DNA of 64,000 nt from Nanobdellota archaeon (GTDB taxonomy: Archaea > Nanobdellota > Nanobdellia > Pacearchaeales > GW2011-AR1): positions 68,314-132,313 of the forward strand of contig JANLHN010000003.1 in NCBI GenBank assembly GCA_024654505.1. Reading direction: 5' to 3'. The notes under the pieces were generated by a model. It was not told the origin of the DNA and did not search any database. It was given only the letters and a program-made list of their open reading frames with translations. Positions 19,608 through 54,776 of the stretch are shown piece after piece. Every line of letters starts with the position of its first letter. Position 1 is the stretch's first letter. The position numbers and the translations under genes were made by a program.

Positions 19608-19644
19608 AGCGTTTAAGCACTACCATGTTATTCTCCAGAAAAAA

Positions 19645-19886
19645 GGGTGGAAGCCGAGAATCTACTCACAATTTGCATCTCGCAATCAGATAAATCTTGA
19701 AATAAATCTTGATTAGATTGCTCAAAGCGAATTGTTCGCTCGGGCAACGCCCTCCTTCGATTCTTTAATTCAAGGGTGGAAGCCTGTTCGCAAAATGCAT
19801 CTTGGAAAAATCTATTTTCATTTGTTTTCCTCGAAGCGTTTTGCTCAAATCGAACTGTTCGATTCTTTAATTCAAGGGTGGAAGCC
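19645..19886. repeat. direct repeats of the tRNA-His 3' end and trailer (possible att-site remnants)
   Basis: The 27-mer cgattctttaattcaagggtggaagcc occurs at 19758-19784 and again at 19860-19886, where it spans the tRNA 3' end. The 18-mer gggtggaagccgagaatc (tRNA acceptor/T-arm) recurs at 19645-19662. An extended ~65-nt imperfect repeat starts at 19722 and 19841. Confidence 0.6.
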
Positions 19887-19948
19887 GAGAATCGAACTCG
19901 GGCTGTTCGGACCACAACCGAACGTTCTGCCACTAAACTACATCCACC
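19877..19948 (-). tRNA. tRNA-His (anticodon GUG) with encoded G-1
   Basis: Reverse complement folds as a cloverleaf. G-1 + GUGGAUG acceptor (one U-U mismatch), D-arm GUUU/AGUGGCA/GAAC. Anticodon stem UUCGG/CCGAA with loop UUGUGGU. T-arm CCGAG-UUCGAUU-CUCGG. Discriminator C pairing G-1. Confidence 0.75.
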
Positions 19949-25196: not shown

Positions 25197-25230
25197 CTTT
25201 CTAAGATAAATACTTGCACCTTTATAAAAA

Positions 25231-25286
25231 TGCTCCCGCCTCGGCAATCGAAGATTGCACCCTCTGGTCGCTATGCTCCCGCCGAG
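25231..25286. repeat. putative attL: two partial direct copies of the tRNA-Glu 3' end (atgctcccgcc[g]) flanking a 15-nt hairpin
   Basis: 25231-25240 tgctcccgcc and 25274-25286 tgctcccgccgag match the 3' terminus of tRNA-Glu (36765-36777, tgctcccgccggg) over 11-12 nt. Hairpin gcaatcgaagattgc lies at 25244-25258. Confidence 0.5.
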
Positions 25287-25763
25287 TAAATCGCCAGCTT
25301 GGAATTTGCAGGGACGCAATTTTATTAAGATTCTAAGAGATCGCCTATTTTTAAAACTTGTCAATGCTGATTTATATTCTCCAATAGAGCATTTTCTATT
25401 ATTATAATTCAACACTTAATATAAACAGATAATGTTGTTTTAAAGAAAGACTTCTTCGCCAAAGCATGAATCAAAAATATCTCAGTAATACCTCAGAAAA
25501 AAATCTGAGATATCCCTTTAAGGAATTTAAAAATAAAAAAAGGCAATAAAAAATATGGAAAAAAGCAGAGTCACAATTACTAGGGGAATATTATGGGGAT
25601 CCACCCCTAGTAATCCTTTAATGTGCTTAAAATGGGGGCAGATTTAGCTTTAAAATGGAACCAGAAATAGTAAGCCAGCAAATAAGCAGAACATTGGAAG
25701 AGATGATTTCAAAATTAAAATTTATGATAGAAGAAATAGAATATCAAATCAAAGCAATTCACG

Positions 25764-25964
25764 ATGGCAAGGAAAAACACAAAGATTCACTTCGTAATTG
25801 AAACTTCAACTAAAGAGCTTTTGATAAGGGAAGCTCAAATGCAAGAAATTTCTTTAGCGGAGTTATGTAGGCAGAAACTAAAAAGAAATTCAAAATTAAT
25901 CAAAATTGAGATGATGTTAGAAGAATTAAATAAAAAACTTATAGAAAATGGCAAGATCCAATAA
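25764..25964 (+). CDS. ribbon-helix-helix (CopG/Arc-like) DNA-binding protein, probable
   Basis: 66 aa. N-terminal beta-strand then helix pattern KIHFVIETSTKELLIREAQMQEISLAELCRQKL. Immediately upstream of orc1/cdc6 on the island. Confidence 0.4.
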   Translation: MARKNTKIHFVIETSTKELLIREAQMQEISLAELCRQKLKRNSKLIKIEMMLEELNKKLIENGKIQ

Positions 25965-25976
25965 AGGCATAGATAA

Positions 25977-27164
25977 ATGCCCAGCTCCGATGGGATCTTT
26001 GAATTTAAAGGCGTTTGTGGGGCGATCCTGGGCTGTTTGTGCGGTTATTTTAGCCAAGGTGTTAGAATGATACTAAAAGATAAGGGTGTCTTTGACATTA
26101 ACCGCATTCCTTCGGTTATTCCTGTAAGAAATAATTTAATTGAAGAAATAGTAAATAAAATAAGATTAAGCGAGGTTTATCGGCTCTTCATTAGCGGAGT
26201 AACGGGGAACGGGAAAACAAGTTCTGTAAAAAGAGCTTTAGAAATTTTAGGTAATGAAATTATTCCAGTTTACATAAATTGCTCTGAAACAAATAGCTAT
26301 ACTTCAATTTCAAAACACATCCTTGAAATTGTAAGAGATAAGCCTTTTAGTGAAAAAGGAAAAAATAGAGATGAACTTGCTGATGAATTAAAAAGAATGC
26401 TTTTAACTAAAAGAACAAAGAAATTAGTTTTTGTTTTTGATGAAGTTGATAAACTAATAGAAAAGAAAGATAATCATGTGGATATATTCTCTCCGTTACT
26501 CAATTATGGGAAAGTTAGTTTTATTCTTATTTCAAATGATCCAAATATCTTTGGAAAAATGCAGGGAATGTTAAGAAGCAGGATGCAGTTAGAAGTTAAA
26601 ATGCTAAGTGCCTATCAGCCAGGCGATATTCTTGAAATATTAAAACAGAAAGCAGAAGAGGGTATGATTGAGGGAAGTTATGATATTGAAACCCTCGCAA
26701 CAATATCTAAGTTTAGCTCAGATATTTGGGGAGACATAAGAGTTGCAATAAAACTTTTAGAAAAAACAGCAGTTATTACAGAAATGCTTGGAAAAGATAA
26801 AATTTCAGAAGAAATTATTAAAGAAGCAATAAAGGACTTGCAGATGTCTGAAATAGATAAAGTATTTCCAACTCTTCCAAGGCATTTAAGATGGGTTGTT
26901 GTTGCTTTATGTTTAGAGTCAAGAAAAAATAATGGCTTTGCAGTCACATACCCAAACGCCTACGAAACCTATGGTTTACTTGCCCAAAAGGAGCGGTTTG
27001 GTAAGGTTGGAGATAGGCAATATAGAGCTTATTTAGATGATTTAGAAATGTTAAGGCTTTTTGATTTTCAATGGAAGCCTGCTGTTAATCGTCGTGGAAG
27101 GGTTAGAATAGCTATTCCCAAGTTTGATTTTGAAAGCTTTTTAGTTGGCATTTCTGCTGAATAA
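25977..27164 (+). CDS. Orc1/Cdc6-family AAA+ replication initiator (island-encoded)
   Basis: Walker A GVTGNGKTSSVK, Walker B LVFVFDEVDKL, sensor-1 ILISND, C-terminal winged helix. True start probably Met at 26067 (MILKDKGVFDINRIP...). Confidence 0.7.
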   Translation: MPSSDGIFEFKGVCGAILGCLCGYFSQGVRMILKDKGVFDINRIPSVIPVRNNLIEEIVNKIRLSEVYRLFISGVTGNGKTSSVKRALEILGNEIIPVYINCSETNSYTSISKHILEIVRDKPFSEKGKNRDELADELKRMLLTKRTKKLVFVFDEVDKLIEKKDNHVDIFSPLLNYGKVSFILISNDPNIFGKMQGMLRSRMQLEVKMLSAYQPGDILEILKQKAEEGMIEGSYDIETLATISKFSSDIWGDIRVAIKLLEKTAVITEMLGKDKISEEIIKEAIKDLQMSEIDKVFPTLPRHLRWVVVALCLESRKNNGFAVTYPNAYETYGLLAQKERFGKVGDRQYRAYLDDLEMLRLFDFQWKPAVNRRGRVRIAIPKFDFESFLVGISAE

Positions 27165-27318
27165 CGGAGATGAAGGGCACATGGGGGAGTGGGCTTCGCT
27201 TCCGTTAATACTCTTATACTCATATTAGAGCGAATAACGGAGTAATGGAATAAGATAATTAAGCTAAAAGAAAGATTTATAAACATATTATATTTCACCT
27301 AATAAGGTGAATTAAGCT

Positions 27319-27921
27319 ATGAATAAGATAGATACAATTTTAAGAGAAGCAAAGGGTAAAATCCTTACAAGAAAAGATTTTGATAGCTTGGCAACTAAGT
27401 ATAAATTTGATAAAGATACATTAAGAAAGGTCATGTTAAACAAAGGTTATCTAATAACTATTTTTAGAGGAGTTTATTATTTAAAAGATTACGAAGAAAA
27501 GAAATTAAATTCTTTAAAATATTCCCCTTATGAGTTATTAGCTCTCGGCTTGGAAAAGAAAGGAATTAAGTGGTATTTTGGTTTGAATACTGCCTTAAAG
27601 TTTCTTGGCTTAACTCATGAAGTTTTTCCAGTAAACATAGTAGTTAATGATAAGTTTAATAGAACAAAGCCAATGAAAATAGCTGGCTCTAGTTTCTTTT
27701 TTGTAAAATTAAAACCTTCTTTATTCTTTGATATAAAGAAAGAAAACACAGCAAATGATATATCTCTTTATTATAGCAATATAGAAAAAACTCTCTTAGA
27801 CTTGATTTACCTAAAGAAAGAGGTAGACCTAAAAGAATATAAATTTAATAAGTCGCTTTTTCTTAGGGAATCAAATAAATATAATAGAATAGTCAAAAAG
27901 AAAATAAAAGAGATGCTATAA
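27319..27921 (+). CDS. AbiEi-like antitoxin (type IV TA / abortive-infection partner), probable
   Basis: 200 aa, N-terminal wHTH-like region. Stop overlaps the start of the AbiEii-like gene (ATAATGG), the canonical AbiE operon layout. Confidence 0.5.
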   Translation: MNKIDTILREAKGKILTRKDFDSLATKYKFDKDTLRKVMLNKGYLITIFRGVYYLKDYEEKKLNSLKYSPYELLALGLEKKGIKWYFGLNTALKFLGLTHEVFPVNIVVNDKFNRTKPMKIAGSSFFFVKLKPSLFFDIKKENTANDISLYYSNIEKTLLDLIYLKKEVDLKEYKFNKSLFLRESNKYNRIVKKKIKEML

Positions 27922-36958: not shown

Positions 36959-37924
36959 ATGAAGAAGGGTTCAAAACCTCAAGAGATTAATGGATTAATA
37001 TTCCGGGAGTTAATTAAAAGGGGCTATTCTTTGGATGGGAATACAAGAATATGGGACGTTTCAGATTCCAAGTTATGGTATTTGAAACCTTATCAGGCAC
37101 AGGCCTATCTTGATTTGTTAGATTCTCAAGATTATAAATCTGGTTTTGCGCCGAAAGAAGAGATTATGATAAATGAGAATATACAAGAAATAGTTGATAG
37201 AGTTGGAGATACTCCTTTGAATATTATTGATTTGGGTTGTGGTGATGGTAGGAAGGCAGTTAAATTTATTGAAGAAATTGGAAAGAAAACAAAAGTTCGT
37301 TATTGCCCTATTGATATTAGTGCATTTATGGTAAAAAAAGCAATAGAAAATATCTCTAAGTTAAACCAAGGAGTGATTGTTAAGTCTCAATGGAATATTT
37401 CGGATTTTGAAAATCTAGAGAATGTTACAAATTTAATAAGCGATAAAGAATACCCTAAGAGTCTCTTTCTCTTGCTAGGTAATACGCTCAGTAATTTTGA
37501 ATTTCATGATTTACTTTACCAGATTAGAACGAGTATGAAATCAGGAGATAGTTTAGTTATTGGGAATGGTATAGAAAATGAAACTGTTGAAGAGGATATG
37601 GTGAGGTTTACAACAACTAACAAATATAACAATGAGTTCTTAGTGAAGATTCCAGAGCAATTAGGTTTTAATCAAAAGGATATCAAATTGAATGTAAGAT
37701 TTAAGAATCATCGTGTAGAATTTTATTACGATATACAAAAAGATTACCATATTAAATTTGGTGGAAGAGAAGTGAGATTTCAGAAGGGAGACCAAATAGT
37801 TGTTGCTGTTTCTTATCATTATTCTAAAGAAGATTTTACTGGTTTTTTGAACATTTATTTTGATGAAGTAATAACCAAGTTTTCAGATGATGGATCTTAC
37901 GGCCTAGCTTTTTGTAAAAAATGA
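36959..37924 (+). CDS. EgtD-like (Methyltransf_33) SAM-dependent methyltransferase
   Basis: 321 aa. IIDLGCGDGRK SAM motif and LLGNTLSNF motif, characteristic of histidine-N-alpha-methyltransferase-like enzymes. Confidence 0.55.
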   Translation: MKKGSKPQEINGLIFRELIKRGYSLDGNTRIWDVSDSKLWYLKPYQAQAYLDLLDSQDYKSGFAPKEEIMINENIQEIVDRVGDTPLNIIDLGCGDGRKAVKFIEEIGKKTKVRYCPIDISAFMVKKAIENISKLNQGVIVKSQWNISDFENLENVTNLISDKEYPKSLFLLLGNTLSNFEFHDLLYQIRTSMKSGDSLVIGNGIENETVEEDMVRFTTTNKYNNEFLVKIPEQLGFNQKDIKLNVRFKNHRVEFYYDIQKDYHIKFGGREVRFQKGDQIVVAVSYHYSKEDFTGFLNIYFDEVITKFSDDGSYGLAFCKK

Positions 37925-38394: not shown

Positions 38395-38514
38395 GAGCCT
38401 ATAGCTCAGCCTGGTTTAGAGCGCCGGTCTTATAAGAATGGGATTCGTTAGAATCTTAGCATTTCTTCATTCGAAGAAAGCCGGAGGTCCTGGGTTCAAA
38501 TCCCAGTAGGCTCA
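38395..38514 (+). tRNA. tRNA-Ile (anticodon UAU) with ~44-nt intron at the canonical 37/38 position
   Basis: Exon 1 GAGCCUA-UA-GCUC-AGCCUGGUUUA-GAGC-G-CCGGU-CUUAUA. Intron carries its own 5-bp hairpin ucuuc/gaaga. Exon 2 A-GCCGG-AGGUC-CUGGG-UUCAAAU-CCCAG-UAGGCUC-A. Anticodon UAU read from positions 34-36. Confidence 0.55.
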
Positions 38515-38605
38515 TGTATGCAATCTTCGATTGCATAATGCCTAAATGAATTGAACTACGTTCAACCCTGTAGGGGGTTCTGGTGAACCCATCCCAGTAG
38601 GCTCA
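38500..38605 (+). repeat. direct duplication of the tRNA-Ile 3' end 91 bp downstream
   Basis: atcccagtaggctca (15/15) occurs at 38500-38514 and 38591-38605. A degenerate copy of the preceding variable/T-arm region and the shared 16-mer tgcaatcttcgattgc (38519-38534) lie between them. Confidence 0.55.
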
Positions 38606-38684
38606 TAGAAAAGATTTGACCCGGTAGGCACATGTTTAACTAAAGTATAATAATTCTTAAAAACTCTCATTTATCCAATTAGGT

Positions 38685-39065
38685 ATGTCAGGCGATATGA
38701 GAAAAAGTTATACTTCTAGATTAATAGATGGGATTGTGGGGCCTGGGCCAGCAAAGCATGCAGCAGCTATTATGGAATATTTTAGGAGGGATTCGGAAAG
38801 AACTCAAGGGTTTCCTCCAACACAGAGAATTGGAATGGTATGGCAAGGAATGTTACATCATGGAGTTCAACCTCTAATCTTAGAAGGAGATGTTGTTGAT
38901 CCCAGACTTCAACATTTGGGAAGAGAAGAACAGAGAATTTATTTGGAATTAGATAGTGCACAAATAGGACTTGATGTATGCGTACATAAGGGATTGGTTA
39001 ATTGTGCAACTAGACCAGATACAAAATATTCTCTTTCCGCAGCAGGTCTTGATTTTATTCGATGA
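38685..39065 (+). CDS. hypothetical protein
   Basis: 126 aa, no motif recognised. Confidence 0.3.
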   Translation: MSGDMRKSYTSRLIDGIVGPGPAKHAAAIMEYFRRDSERTQGFPPTQRIGMVWQGMLHHGVQPLILEGDVVDPRLQHLGREEQRIYLELDSAQIGLDVCVHKGLVNCATRPDTKYSLSAAGLDFIR

Positions 39066-39129
39066 AGATTCCAATAGGCTCACTTTTTAGTATACAAATT
39101 CTTAAAAACACTCCTTCGTTTTTTATTTT

Positions 39130-51923: not shown

Positions 51924-52544
51924 GTGGAAATTGTGAAATATCCGTTTAATCTGGTTGCTAAGATTTCCCATTTAATAATTAGTCTCTTGTTTGCCTATTC
52001 TATTATTAGGGATTATTTTTCTGGAGTTTACTGGAGAATTCCTCTTTATCTTCTAGTTTTTCTCCTTTATTCTTTTGGCTTTTTTAAAATTAAAAATTTA
52101 TCGAATACCTCTAGAGTCTTTTTGGGGATTATAATGTTATTAGAATTGGGAGGGGAAAGTTTGTTTAGGCTTTTTTACACAACAGTTTATTATGACAAGA
52201 TTCTCCATTTTATAAATCCGTTTTTTATAATATTTATTACCTATGACGTGTTGGGAGATTTTGTTAAAGATAAAAATAAGAGGATTTACTTTTCTTTTTT
52301 TGGAGTGCTTATTATTGGGCTTATTTGGGAGTTAATAGAGATTTTCCTATTTACCTTTTTTAATGTTCCTCTTGTTGGCGTGGTCCTTACTGATTCTCTA
52401 ATAAAATCTTCTTCTAGTATTACTTTTTGGTTAAGCCCGTGGGTAGATACCTTTTATGATATCGTTTTAGATGTGCTGGGGGCCTTTTTTGCTTTAATCT
52501 TAATGATTATCCTCTACAAAAAGAAGGGGTTAAACCAAAAATGA
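51924..52544 (+). CDS. integral membrane protein
   Basis: 206 aa, about 6 TM helices. Confidence 0.35.
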   Translation: MEIVKYPFNLVAKISHLIISLLFAYSIIRDYFSGVYWRIPLYLLVFLLYSFGFFKIKNLSNTSRVFLGIIMLLELGGESLFRLFYTTVYYDKILHFINPFFIIFITYDVLGDFVKDKNKRIYFSFFGVLIIGLIWELIEIFLFTFFNVPLVGVVLTDSLIKSSSSITFWLSPWVDTFYDIVLDVLGAFFALILMIILYKKKGLNQK

Positions 52545-53023
52545 CCAACAAATATGTTTGGGAATTTACTAATCAAAGAAAACTGAACAAATCAGAGTTT
52601 TTAGATTACTTCGAGAGGAAAGTATTTAGGACAATTCGGAAGTATGATATGCTTCCAAAGGACAAAGCTATTATATTAAAGAAGTCCGAGGACCTGAATA
52701 CTACTGTTTTGAAGAAGGTGTTGGAAAAGAAGTTTACTGTTAAGTTTGGAGTGAAACCTGTTTTCTTTTCAGATAATTTATCTTTTGTTGCAGAAGAGAT
52801 TTTCAAGAAAATCTTGATGGGTAAATTTGAAGGTCCAAAACCAGAGAATAGGCCCCTTTATTTCCTTTCAGATAAAGAAGTTGAACTTTATGCTGAATTG
52901 GTTGGCCTTAAAGGAGATGTTAGAAAAAGAGACTCTAGAACTCGGGCTCTTTTTGATAAGTTTTTAAAGAAAAACCAAGACCTTGAGTTAAATATTGTTA
53001 GGGCTTTGGGACAAATTGTTTAG
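52541..53023 (+). CDS. hypothetical protein
   Basis: 160 aa. Its last ~15 codons are formed by copy 1 of a 42-nt direct repeat. Confidence 0.3.
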   Translation: MTNKYVWEFTNQRKLNKSEFLDYFERKVFRTIRKYDMLPKDKAIILKKSEDLNTTVLKKVLEKKFTVKFGVKPVFFSDNLSFVAEEIFKKILMGKFEGPKPENRPLYFLSDKEVELYAELVGLKGDVRKRDSRTRALFDKFLKKNQDLELNIVRALGQIV

Positions 53024-54587: not shown

Positions 54588-54776
54588 GAGTGTTACAAGA
54601 ATTTATTGTTTTTATAGTATGATGTTTTGGGTGTTCAAAGGCAAATCAAGACCTTGAGTTAAATATTGTTAGGGCTTTGGGACAAATTTGTTAGATTATT
54701 TTAGCTTAAGAGAGTGTTACCCCTATCTTGTAATGACAATAGTAAGGTTTAAATAGTGTAAAAAAATCTATTAATA

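What the first reader, a model, noticed from the sequence alone, without database searches (positions are those of the whole stretch)
25231..25286. Shared 16-nt palindromic motif tgcaatcttcgattgc at two tRNA-fragment repeat loci
The hairpin-forming 15-16-mer gcaatcttcgattgc is found at 25244-25258 (as its reverse complement, between the two tRNA-Glu 3'-end copies) and again at 38519-38534, between the two copies of the tRNA-Ile 3' end. Two exact occurrences of a 15-mer, both sandwiched between duplicated tRNA 3' termini, are very unlikely by chance in 64 kb. This suggests a conserved recombination or arm-type site, or a relic of related integrative elements. The motif resembles a T-arm (UUCGAUU loop) and could be a mini tRNA-like structure.
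Basis: seen in the sequence. Interest (0 to 1): 0.5.

Follow-up and report, generated by a model that had tools for sequence, protein, structure and literature searches.

The report
Shared hairpin in tRNA integration scars
The same 16-base palindrome sits in two short stretches of foreign DNA left behind downstream of a tRNA-Glu and a tRNA-Ile gene of a DPANN archaeon, most likely as a leftover of related integrating elements; the phenomenon is a familiar kind, and the palindrome's own role is unproven.

Summary
TGCAATCTTCGATTGC occurs exactly twice in the window (25244-25259 minus strand, 38519-38534 plus strand). Each copy lies between direct copies of a tRNA 3' end. The window is a DPANN archaeal genome. 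tRNA-His, tRNA-Glu and tRNA-Ile each carry three or more direct copies of their 3' end downstream, and the last copy keeps the T-run and the next gene's promoter. Between tRNA-Glu and its second copy lies an intact 11.5 kb integrative element. It has a tyrosine integrase, Orc1/Cdc6, AbiE, PDC-M33 and a methyltransferase, with inverted repeats flanking the att core. A 93%-identical integrase in another genome has the same arms, and there a single tRNA-end copy adjoins its distal arm. The closest relative has both tRNAs with no duplicates and no palindrome. The palindromes therefore sit in short, integrase-less, att-flanked inserts of the kind produced by serial integration and decay. The mini-tRNA idea is rejected. 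The motif was not found in any other DPANN locus examined, so its function (dyad binding site or RNA hairpin) stays inferred. One point is unexplained: short inserts in several DPANN genomes start with a strong perfect hairpin, and the intact elements do not.

The parts
38517..38537 (+). Palindrome copy 1: tatgcaatc-TTC-gattgcata, a perfect 9-bp stem with a 3-nt loop. It starts 2 nt after the end of tRNA-Ile and contains the shared 16-mer at 38519-38534.
25244..25259 (-). Palindrome copy 2: the shared 16-mer TGCAATCTTCGATTGC with a 6-7 bp stem. It lies 12 nt after Glu 3'-end copy 2 and 2 nt before copy 3.
38395..38514 (+). tRNA-Ile(UAU) gene with a 44-nt intron. Its last 15 nt (38500-38514) are att core copy 1.
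38515..38590 (+). Ile insert 1, 76 nt, non-coding, with three hairpins. It holds palindrome copy 1.
38591..38605 (+). tRNA-Ile 3'-end copy 2 (exact 15-mer; 16 nt exact including the following T).
38620..38632 (+). Degenerate further copy of the tRNA-Ile 3' end (cccggtaggcaca, 11 of 13 positions).
   Evidence: read directly
38606..39067 (+). Ile insert 2, 462 nt, containing a 126-aa ORFan (38685-39065).
39068..39082 (+). tRNA-Ile 3'-end copy 3 (2 mismatches). It is followed by a T5 run and the promoter region of CTP synthase, so it is probably the original tRNA end.
36765..36837 (-). tRNA-Glu(UUC) gene. Its 3' end (36763-36775, CGGCGGGAGCATA) is att core copy 1.
25285..36762 (-). Intact integrated element, about 11.5 kb and low in G+C. 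It carries an integrase, Orc1/Cdc6, AbiEi/AbiEii, PDC-M33A/B/C, a type II methyltransferase and a UPF0489 protein.
35508..36686 (-). Tyrosine integrase (392 aa) immediately downstream of tRNA-Glu.
36734..36754 (-). Inverted repeat of the tRNA-proximal (P') arm, ttggaattttgtggggacgca, starting 8 nt after the core.
25299..25318 (-). Inverted repeat of the distal (P) arm, tgcgtccctgcaaattccaa, ending 14 nt before core copy 2.
25272..25284 (-). tRNA-Glu 3'-end copy 2 (exact 13-mer), the distal att site of the intact element.
25242..25271 (-). Older Glu insert, 30 nt between the two 13-nt core matches. It holds palindrome copy 2 and is absent from the homologous element end in L166.
25229..25241 (-). 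tRNA-Glu 3'-end copy 3 (11 nt exact). It is followed by a T5 run and the TATA box of the topoisomerase IB gene, so it is probably the original tRNA end.

Best explanation
The two palindrome copies are pieces of foreign DNA left at two tRNA genes by site-specific integration.

In this DPANN archaeon, elements with a tyrosine integrase recombine with the 3' end of a tRNA gene. Each event restores the tRNA with an element-borne copy of the 3' end and pushes the previous copy downstream. Repeated events plus deletion of the element bodies leave arrays of the form tRNA - insert - 3'-end copy - insert - original 3' end.

Before the present 11.5 kb element arrived, tRNA-Glu was followed by a 30-nt insert, and tRNA-Ile is still followed by a 76-nt insert. 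Both inserts begin, 2-12 nt after the att core and in the same orientation, with the same dyad-symmetric 16-17-mer.

I infer that the two inserts descend from related elements, or from one element family able to use both tRNAs. I also infer that the palindrome was a functional module of the arm next to the restored tRNA. Most likely it was a dyad binding site for the integrase or an accessory factor. It also forms a stable hairpin in the tRNA trailer transcript.

What is shown: the repeats, the intact element and its arms, and the absence of duplicates and palindrome next to the same two tRNAs in the closest relative. What is inferred: common descent of the two inserts and any present or past function of the palindrome.
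For: 1. Motif and flanking tRNA-end copies are confirmed.

2. An intact element lies between Glu copies 1 and 2. The integrase is adjacent to the tRNA, G+C is low and the cargo is defence genes.

3. The element's arms are inverted repeats flanking the core. They are conserved in L166, whose integrase is 93% identical and which sits at tRNA-Glu(CUC). There, only one decayed tRNA-end copy adjoins the distal arm, and a T-rich flank follows it. The extra 43 nt with the palindrome is therefore not part of that element's end.

4. In all three arrays the last copy is the one followed by a T-run and the next gene's promoter.

5. The closest relative, L165 (68% identity in the adjacent methyltransferase), has tRNA-Glu and tRNA-Ile in the same arrangement with no duplicates and no palindrome.

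6. A clean filled-versus-empty case exists in the same lineage. L008 has a 589-nt insert at tRNA-Ser(GCT), and its distal copy carries the flank that directly follows the tRNA in L005 and L015.

7. A related integrase family is seen integrated at tRNA-Asp, in P-core-P' junctions without the tRNA (L172, L176), and with an extra core copy 1.6 kb upstream (L176). This points to elements that are mobile and that pile up in tandem.

8. Across 25 DPANN tRNAs, copies of the 3'-end 13-mer occur downstream in 6 and never upstream or inverted.

9. The literature describes tRNA fragments made by integration in archaea (PMC9897764) and the integrate-decay-reintegrate (CIME/accretion) model (PMC5704250).
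Against: No intact element carrying the palindrome was found. The motif is absent from all 34 DPANN loci fetched and from IMG/VR in any relevant context. The first 120 metagenome hits contain no DPANN-like, tRNA-adjacent case, and that scan was truncated.

The two inserts share nothing except the 16-mer. The intact elements of the one integrase family present have no strong hairpin next to the tRNA (best stem 4 bp), and their arms are unrelated in sequence to the palindrome. Decay of that family therefore does not obviously produce these inserts.

Perfect conservation of 16 nt in two otherwise unrelated scars is not what neutral decay predicts.
Confidence: 0.6

Rival explanations
1. The short inserts are themselves a class of miniature, non-autonomous, att-flanked modules of about 45-130 nt. 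Each has a core copy, a strong hairpin, a spacer and a second core copy. They would be moved or generated in trans by DPANN integrases. The 16-mer would mark one such family that has used both tRNA-Glu and tRNA-Ile.
For: The architecture recurs in different genomes with different sequences: window His (two homologous tandem units), window Ile, L001 tRNA-Ser(CGA) and L162. A perfect hairpin with a stem of at least 7 bp lies within 50 nt downstream of 5 of 25 tRNAs, against 1.4% of random windows and 0 of 25 upstream. Four of those five are the tRNAs that also have a 3'-end copy 73-100 nt downstream. The intact elements lack such a hairpin. L179 shows the same kind of module at the 5' end of tRNA-Ile.
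Against: No two inserts at different loci are alike over their length. Only the 16-mer is shared. No presence/absence polymorphism of a short module was seen; L162 and L164 are identical here. A circle of about 100 nt is a poor recombination substrate. The sample is small (25 tRNAs).
Confidence: 0.15
2. The palindrome is a host-functional element kept by selection. It would act as a hairpin in the pre-tRNA trailer (3'-end processing or insulation from read-through), or as a dyad operator for a transcription factor.
For: The hairpin is stable. It lies 2-12 nt after a tRNA end that is, or once was, the functional one, and in the same orientation both times. The tRNA-proximal copies have lost their T-run terminator. 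Other tRNAs have unrelated strong hairpins in the same place, including L165 tRNA-Glu, which has no duplicate. The Glu copy lies about 15 nt upstream of the topoisomerase IB TATA box.
Against: It is absent downstream of the orthologous tRNA-Ile and tRNA-Glu in relatives. At the Glu locus it is now 11.5 kb from the tRNA, so it cannot serve that tRNA. Its distance to the next promoter differs greatly between the two sites, about 15 nt against about 110 nt. There are only two copies in 64 kb.
Confidence: 0.1
3. The palindrome is a tiny dispersed palindromic repeat (REP- or MITE-like) that happened to land in two intergenic scars. It might be related to the hairpin repeat family that shares its 13-16-nt apex in some metagenome contigs.
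For: AT-rich non-coding contigs carry 5-10 copies each of CAATCTTCGATTG at the apex of longer hairpins whose lower stems differ from copy to copy yet stay complementary (L049, L075, L149, also L042 and L058). The two window copies share no flanking sequence.
Against: Those contigs have few long ORFs (none or two of 80 aa or more in L149 and L049), no tRNA or Rfam hit, and look nothing like a gene-dense DPANN genome. They were found because the scan was for this exact word, in a collection large enough to give hundreds of chance hits. In the window there are only two copies, both inside att arrays. None occurs in the other DPANN DNA examined.
Confidence: 0.07
4. The motif is a T-arm mimic or mini tRNA-like structure, or a decayed T-arm of a longer tRNA 3' duplicate.
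For: It contains TTCGATT, a T-loop-like heptamer. In the Glu insert, AGCGACC upstream and GCGGGAGCA downstream match the sequences that flank the T-arm of tRNA-Glu.
Against: The fold is a 9-bp stem with a 3-nt loop, not 5 bp with 7 nt. There is no complementary 5' acceptor strand. There is no Rfam tRNA hit at E <= 1. At tRNA-Ile the motif follows a complete tRNA and does not replace a T-arm.
Confidence: 0.03

Closest known systems
Integrative elements of archaea and bacteria that target tRNA genes through a tyrosine recombinase (attL/attR made of a duplicated tRNA 3' part; for example PYG1 of Pyrococcus yayanosii, cited in PMC9897764)
   Same: The integrase lies next to the tRNA. The element is bounded by direct repeats of the tRNA 3' end. 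The tRNA is restored by the element's copy and the original end is displaced. The cargo is defence and replication genes.
   Different: The host is a DPANN archaeon. The repeats are short (11-16 nt exact here, against 44 bp for PYG1). The att site has 20-35-nt inverted repeats on both sides of the core. The integrase family is unusually uniform, about 60% identity over more than 2000 database proteins.
CIMEs (cis-mobilizable elements) and tandem accretion at att sites, described for streptococcal ICEs and IMEs (PMC5704250)
   Same: The inserts are att-flanked and lack an integrase. At tRNA-Glu the insert lies in tandem with an intact element at the same tRNA. This fits the integrate-decay-reintegrate scheme.
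   Different: These inserts are far smaller (30-462 nt) than described CIMEs, which are kilobases long. Here the newest element lies next to the tRNA. No cis-mobilization has been shown. The case is archaeal.
Core and arm binding sites of tyrosine recombinases (dyad-symmetric sites around a 6-8 bp overlap)
   Same: The motif has dyad symmetry, lies immediately next to the att core, and has a fixed orientation relative to it.
   Different: The spacer between the half-sites is 3 nt, too short for a crossover site. The sequence is unrelated to the arms of the intact elements found here. Binding has not been tested.
REP/BIME or MITE-type dispersed palindromes
   Same: A short perfect palindrome in intergenic DNA, identical at two places with unrelated flanks.
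   Different: There are only two copies in 64 kb. There is no terminal-inverted-repeat plus target-site-duplication structure of its own. Both copies are confined to att arrays.

Membership tests
tRNA-targeting tyrosine-integrase integrative element (applies to 25285-36762) | A tyrosine recombinase gene at one end, adjacent to the target tRNA | tested here: met
   Phage_integrase PF00589, E = 5.8e-12, in ORF 35508-36746, which starts about 80 nt after tRNA-Glu.
tRNA-targeting tyrosine-integrase integrative element (applies to 25285-36762) | The element is bounded by direct repeats identical to the tRNA 3' end | tested here: met
   The exact 13-mer CGGCGGGAGCATA is at 36763-36775 and 25272-25284 (0.2 expected by chance).
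tRNA-targeting tyrosine-integrase integrative element (applies to 25285-36762) | An unoccupied site in a related genome, and the same element ends elsewhere | tested here: met
   L165 tRNA-Glu has no integrase and no duplicate. L166 has the same arms at tRNA-Glu(CUC).
tRNA-targeting tyrosine-integrase integrative element (applies to 25285-36762) | Excision or circular attP form demonstrated | not tested
   A P-core-P' junction without the tRNA was seen only for the related tRNA-Asp family (L172, L176). Reads of the source sample are not available.
Decayed att-flanked remnant (CIME-like) in tandem accretion (applies to the two palindrome-bearing inserts) | Flanked by att copies, lacking integrase and transfer genes | tested here: met
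   The inserts of 30 nt and 76 nt lie between tRNA-end copies and hold no ORF.
Decayed att-flanked remnant (CIME-like) in tandem accretion (applies to the two palindrome-bearing inserts) | In tandem with another element at the same att site | tested here: met
   Glu: intact element, copy 2, insert, copy 3. Ile: insert 1, copy 2, insert 2 with an ORFan, copy 3.
Decayed att-flanked remnant (CIME-like) in tandem accretion (applies to the two palindrome-bearing inserts) | Recognisable homology of the remnant to an intact parent element | tested here: not met
   No intact element with the palindrome or other insert sequence was found in the fetched loci, IMG/VR or the truncated metagenome scan. The arms of the resident integrase family differ.
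tRNA-like structure / T-arm mimic | A 5-bp stem with a 7-nt T-loop stacked on an acceptor helix, recognisable by a tRNA covariance model | tested here: not met
   The fold is a 9-bp stem with a 3-nt loop. There is no Rfam hit to tRNA at E <= 1 in 38505-38690 or 25200-25330.
Dispersed palindromic repeat (REP/MITE-like) | Many dispersed copies in the genome | tested here: inconclusive
   There are only 2 copies in the 64 kb available, even at 3 mismatches. The rest of the 369 kb source contig could not be retrieved.
Casposon (considered because of inverted repeats plus a 13-nt target duplication at a tRNA end) | A Cas1-family casposase and a family B polymerase | tested here: not met
   Pfam finds a tyrosine integrase and no Cas1 or PolB among the nine large ORFs of the element that were scanned.

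The most novel reading that the evidence does not exclude
DPANN archaea harbour a previously undescribed class of miniature att-flanked hairpin modules of about 45-130 nt (tRNA-end copy, perfect 7-11 bp hairpin, spacer, tRNA-end copy). These would be generated or moved by their very uniform tRNA-targeting integrases and would accumulate in tandem next to tRNA genes. The 16-mer palindrome would mark one family that has used both tRNA-Glu and tRNA-Ile.
Probability: 0.15. Interest if true: 0.55.

Novelty: new member of a known kind. Interest (0 to 1): 0.3.

Why it matters
Mobile elements of DPANN archaea are poorly described. This window shows an intact defence-gene island at a tRNA and arrays of att scars at three of four tRNAs. 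It also belongs to an integrase family that is abundant and unusually uniform across Nano-, Pace- and Woesearchaeota. These facts suggest that tRNA-directed integration is a main route of gene flux in these small genomes.

For annotation, the tRNA fragments must not be called as genes. The shared palindrome, and the link between short inserts and strong hairpins, give a concrete handle for a genome-wide survey. By itself the palindrome is a small detail of an ordinary process.

Tried and rejected
1. Thaumarchaeal origin, my first guess from the topoisomerase IB gene and the AT-richness. Rejected: relatives of the topoisomerase IB and methyltransferase are Woese-, Pace- and Nanoarchaeota MAGs.

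2. Casposon reading of the inverted repeats plus 13-nt duplication. Rejected: no Cas1, and a tyrosine integrase is present.

3. Synteny around topoisomerase IB in 20 genome loci. Uninformative: about 50% identity and no tRNA-Glu nearby.

4. Retrieval of the source genome by exact protein look-up. It failed twice.

5. IMG/VR searches. The 16-mer gives 21 hits at the chance level, all in unrelated contexts. The integrase family is absent.

6. Metagenome scan of the 16-mer. It was truncated at 120 rows. The hits were chance matches plus one unrelated non-coding repeat family.

7. The palindrome as a deletion junction of two element-end inverted repeats. Rejected: both copies have the same TTC centre and asymmetric distances to the cores.

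8. Primer-binding-site reading of the fragments. Rejected: there is no TGG for the CCA end.

9. Split-tRNA 3' half or T-loop intron reading. Rejected: there is no valid T-arm before the downstream copies, and the first copy already completes a canonical tRNA.

10. Homology of the 126-aa ORF to the 126-aa ORF in L162. None. It is an ORFan.

11. Weak similarities I judged to be chance: ACCAG..AGGG near both palindromes, and TGCAAT inside the element arm.

Full report
**1. Observation.**

The 15-mer GCAATCTTCGATTGC occurs exactly twice in the window, at 25244-25258 (minus strand) and 38520-38534 (plus strand). There is no further match at up to 2 mismatches and no further copy of the 17-mer at up to 3 mismatches. 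The shared exact stretch is 16 nt.

At the second site it is the centre of a perfect 21-nt hairpin, tatgcaatc-TTC-gattgcata (38517-38537), with -8.5 kcal/mol and z = -6.2. At the first site only 6-7 bp of stem remain.

- The first copy lies between CGGCGGGAGCATA (25272-25284) and a 2-mismatch copy (25229-25241).
- The second lies between the end of tRNA-Ile (38500-38514) and an exact copy at 38591-38605.

Exact 16-mer repeats as such are not rare in this AT-rich DNA. A Markov control gives about ten. However, a palindromic 16-mer with 7 G+C shared by two pre-defined intervals of 30 and 76 nt is not a chance event.

**2. What the surroundings are.**

The window is a DPANN archaeal genome. Relatives of its topoisomerase IB and of the methyltransferase at 36959-37924 are Woese-, Pace- and Nanoarchaeota MAGs. 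The methyltransferase is 100% identical to a protein of an NCBI MAG 'archaeon' on a 369,652-bp contig.

There are four tRNA genes: Trp, His, Glu(UUC) at 36765-36837 on the minus strand, and an intron-containing Ile(UAU) at 38395-38514. The real tRNA-Glu is therefore 11.5 kb from the 'tRNA-Glu fragments' of the finding.

Between them lies an integrated element, 25285-36762.
- A tyrosine integrase lies directly downstream of the tRNA (a generic integrase by PHROGs, with a weak match to XerA).
- It also has an Orc1/Cdc6-type ATPase, AbiEi/AbiEii, the candidate defence system PDC-M33A/B/C, a type II methyltransferase and a UPF0489 protein.
- Its G+C is lower than that of the flanks.
- Just inside the two 13-nt direct repeats are imperfect inverted repeats. 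One is ttggaattttgtggggacgca, 8 nt after the tRNA. The other is tgcgtccctgcaaattccaa, 14 nt before the distal copy.

An integrase 93% identical (P0121) in another MAG (L166) sits next to tRNA-Glu(CUC) with the same two arms. In L166 the distal arm is followed by a single decayed tRNA end and then the host flank. The 43 nt that follow the distal arm in the window (the 30-nt insert with the palindrome, plus a third tRNA-end copy) are therefore not part of this element. They were already there when it integrated.

**3. Arrays of tRNA-end copies.**

Each of His, Glu and Ile has three or more direct copies of its 3' end downstream.
- His: 19876-19890, about 19774-19784, and 19645-19659.
- Glu: as described above.
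- Ile: 38500-38514, 38591-38605, a degenerate copy at 38620-38632, and 39068-39082.

In each array only the last copy is followed by a T-run and the promoter of the next host gene. For Glu that gene is topoisomerase IB and for Ile it is CTP synthase. This is what serial integration at the 3' end of a tRNA gene produces: each event displaces the older end. The two His units are homologous to each other.

**4. Comparison with other genomes.**

- The closest relative available is L165 (68% identity in the methyltransferase). It has tRNA-Glu, the methyltransferase and tRNA-Ile in the same arrangement, with no duplicates and no palindrome. Its tRNA-Ile is followed at once by a T-run, a TATA box and the GTPase gene.
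- Other relatives also lack the motif.
- In a different lineage, L008 has a 589-nt insert at tRNA-Ser(GCT). Its distal copy carries exactly the flank that follows the intact tRNA in L005 and L015, which is a clean filled-versus-empty pair.
- A further branch of the same integrase family (P0218) is found integrated at tRNA-Asp. Its arms are inverted repeats of each other over about 35 nt. It is also found as a P-core-P' junction without the tRNA, and with an extra core copy 1.6 kb upstream. This points to mobile elements that pile up in tandem.
- The integrase family is very large and uniform: more than 2000 proteins at about 60% identity.
- In 25 DPANN tRNA genes, the terminal 13-mer recurs downstream in six and never upstream or inverted.

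**5. Interpretation.**

The two palindrome copies lie in short, integrase-less, att-flanked inserts. In the terms used for bacterial elements, these are decayed remnants in tandem accretion (PMC5704250). tRNA fragments of this origin are well known in archaea (PMC9897764).

Both palindromes start 2-12 nt after an att core that is, or was, the end of the working tRNA. Both have the same orientation. I therefore take the palindrome to be a module of the tRNA-proximal arm of a related pair of elements, most likely a dyad binding site. It would also form a stable hairpin in the tRNA trailer. This last step is inference.

**6. What does not fit.**

- No intact element with this palindrome was found. 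It is absent from all DPANN loci fetched and from IMG/VR in any relevant context. It is also absent from DPANN-like contexts among the first 120 metagenome hits, and that scan was cut off.
- The inserts share only the 16-mer.
- Short inserts in several genomes begin with a strong perfect hairpin. Five of 25 tRNAs have a stem of at least 7 bp within 50 nt downstream, against 1.4% of random windows. Four of those five are the tRNAs with a tRNA-end copy 73-100 nt away.
- The intact elements have no such hairpin.
- L179 shows the same kind of module at the 5' end of tRNA-Ile.

This leaves room for a more interesting reading, in which these are miniature modules of their own kind. I rate that at about 0.15.

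**7. Rejected readings.**

- Mini tRNA or T-arm: the geometry is wrong, there is no acceptor partner, and there is no Rfam hit at E <= 1.
- Casposon: no Cas1.
- Deletion junction of two terminal repeats: the centre is identical in both copies.
- Primer-binding site: there is no TGG.
- Split tRNA or T-loop intron: there is no valid T-arm before the downstream copies.
- The repeat family in AT-rich non-coding metagenome contigs carries the same 13-16-mer at the apex of longer hairpins. It has few long ORFs and no tRNAs. It was found because the exact word was searched in a very large collection, and I treat it as unrelated.

**8. Verdict.**

It is a new member of a known kind and of modest interest.

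Noticed in passing
window 19645-19947 (minus strand): tRNA-His is followed by two homologous tandem units of about 102 and 125-130 nt, each ending in a copy of the tRNA 3' end. A 29-nt repeat occurs at 19858-19886 and 19756-19784, and a 20-nt exact copy at 19643-19662. Each unit has its own perfect hairpin followed by ttgagcaa (aatcgaaCAGttcgatt and agcgaaCAAttcgct). The second hairpin's 5' arm lies in a 21-nt insertion that matches its altered 3' arm.
   Followed up: partly
window 25285-36762: The integrated element is a defence island. It carries AbiEi/AbiEii (27319-28841), the candidate system PDC-M33A/B/C (29293-32742, the last protein being a DUF6339) and a type II N6-adenine methyltransferase (32749-33909). 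It also has an Orc1/Cdc6-like ATPase and a UPF0489 protein.
   Followed up: partly
window 52976-53018 and 54647-54689: An exact 43-nt direct repeat flanks about 1.63 kb holding three minus-strand ORFs (165, 163 and 203 aa). The first copy overlaps the 3' end of ORF 52541-53023. It may be another att-flanked insertion, this time at a protein-coding gene.
   Followed up: no
L049, L075, L149, L042, L058 (JGI Ga0316218, Ga0316221 and Ga0316223 contigs): These are AT-rich, non-coding contigs packed with palindromes. The core CAATCTTCGATTG recurs up to 10 times in 3.3 kb as the apex of longer hairpins whose lower stems differ from copy to copy yet stay complementary. There are no tRNAs or Rfam hits. 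The origin is unknown and it is probably unrelated to the window.
   Followed up: partly
proteins P0121-P0240; loci L166-L177: The integrase belongs to a very large and unusually uniform DPANN family, more than 2000 database proteins at about 60% identity. Members sit next to tRNA-Glu(UUC), tRNA-Glu(CUC) and tRNA-Asp. Their att sites have 20-35-nt inverted repeats on both sides of the core. The family is absent from IMG/VR.
   Followed up: partly
L179 3500-3760; L177 and L178 upstream of tRNA-Glu: L179 has a 19-nt copy of the 5' end of tRNA-Ile (with 7 nt of upstream flank) about 105 nt upstream of the gene. It is followed at once by the palindrome aaggaaaacTAgttttcctt. An 11-mer, ataagctaaag, occurs on both sides of the tRNA. 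L177 and L178 carry tandem decayed tRNA-Glu pseudogene units with duplicated promoter regions.
   Followed up: no
L008 11068-11754 compared with L005 and L015 around 11027: A 589-nt insert with one small ORF and no integrase lies at the 3' end of tRNA-Ser(GCT), flanked by cccagtctcggcgt. Sister genomes have the empty site.
   Followed up: yes
window 38606-39116: A 126-aa ORFan (38685-39065) has no homologue other than itself among 5.8 billion proteins. It lies between two tRNA-Ile end copies. A 28-nt promoter-like stretch recurs at 86% identity after both copies (38644-38671 and 39089-39116).
   Followed up: partly
window 38395-38514; L165 1919-2037; L179 3617-3735: tRNA-Ile has a UAU anticodon and a 44-nt intron. 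The gene order tRNA-Glu, methyltransferase, tRNA-Ile is shared with the closest relative (L165), and the methyltransferase-tRNA-Ile adjacency also with L179.
   Followed up: no
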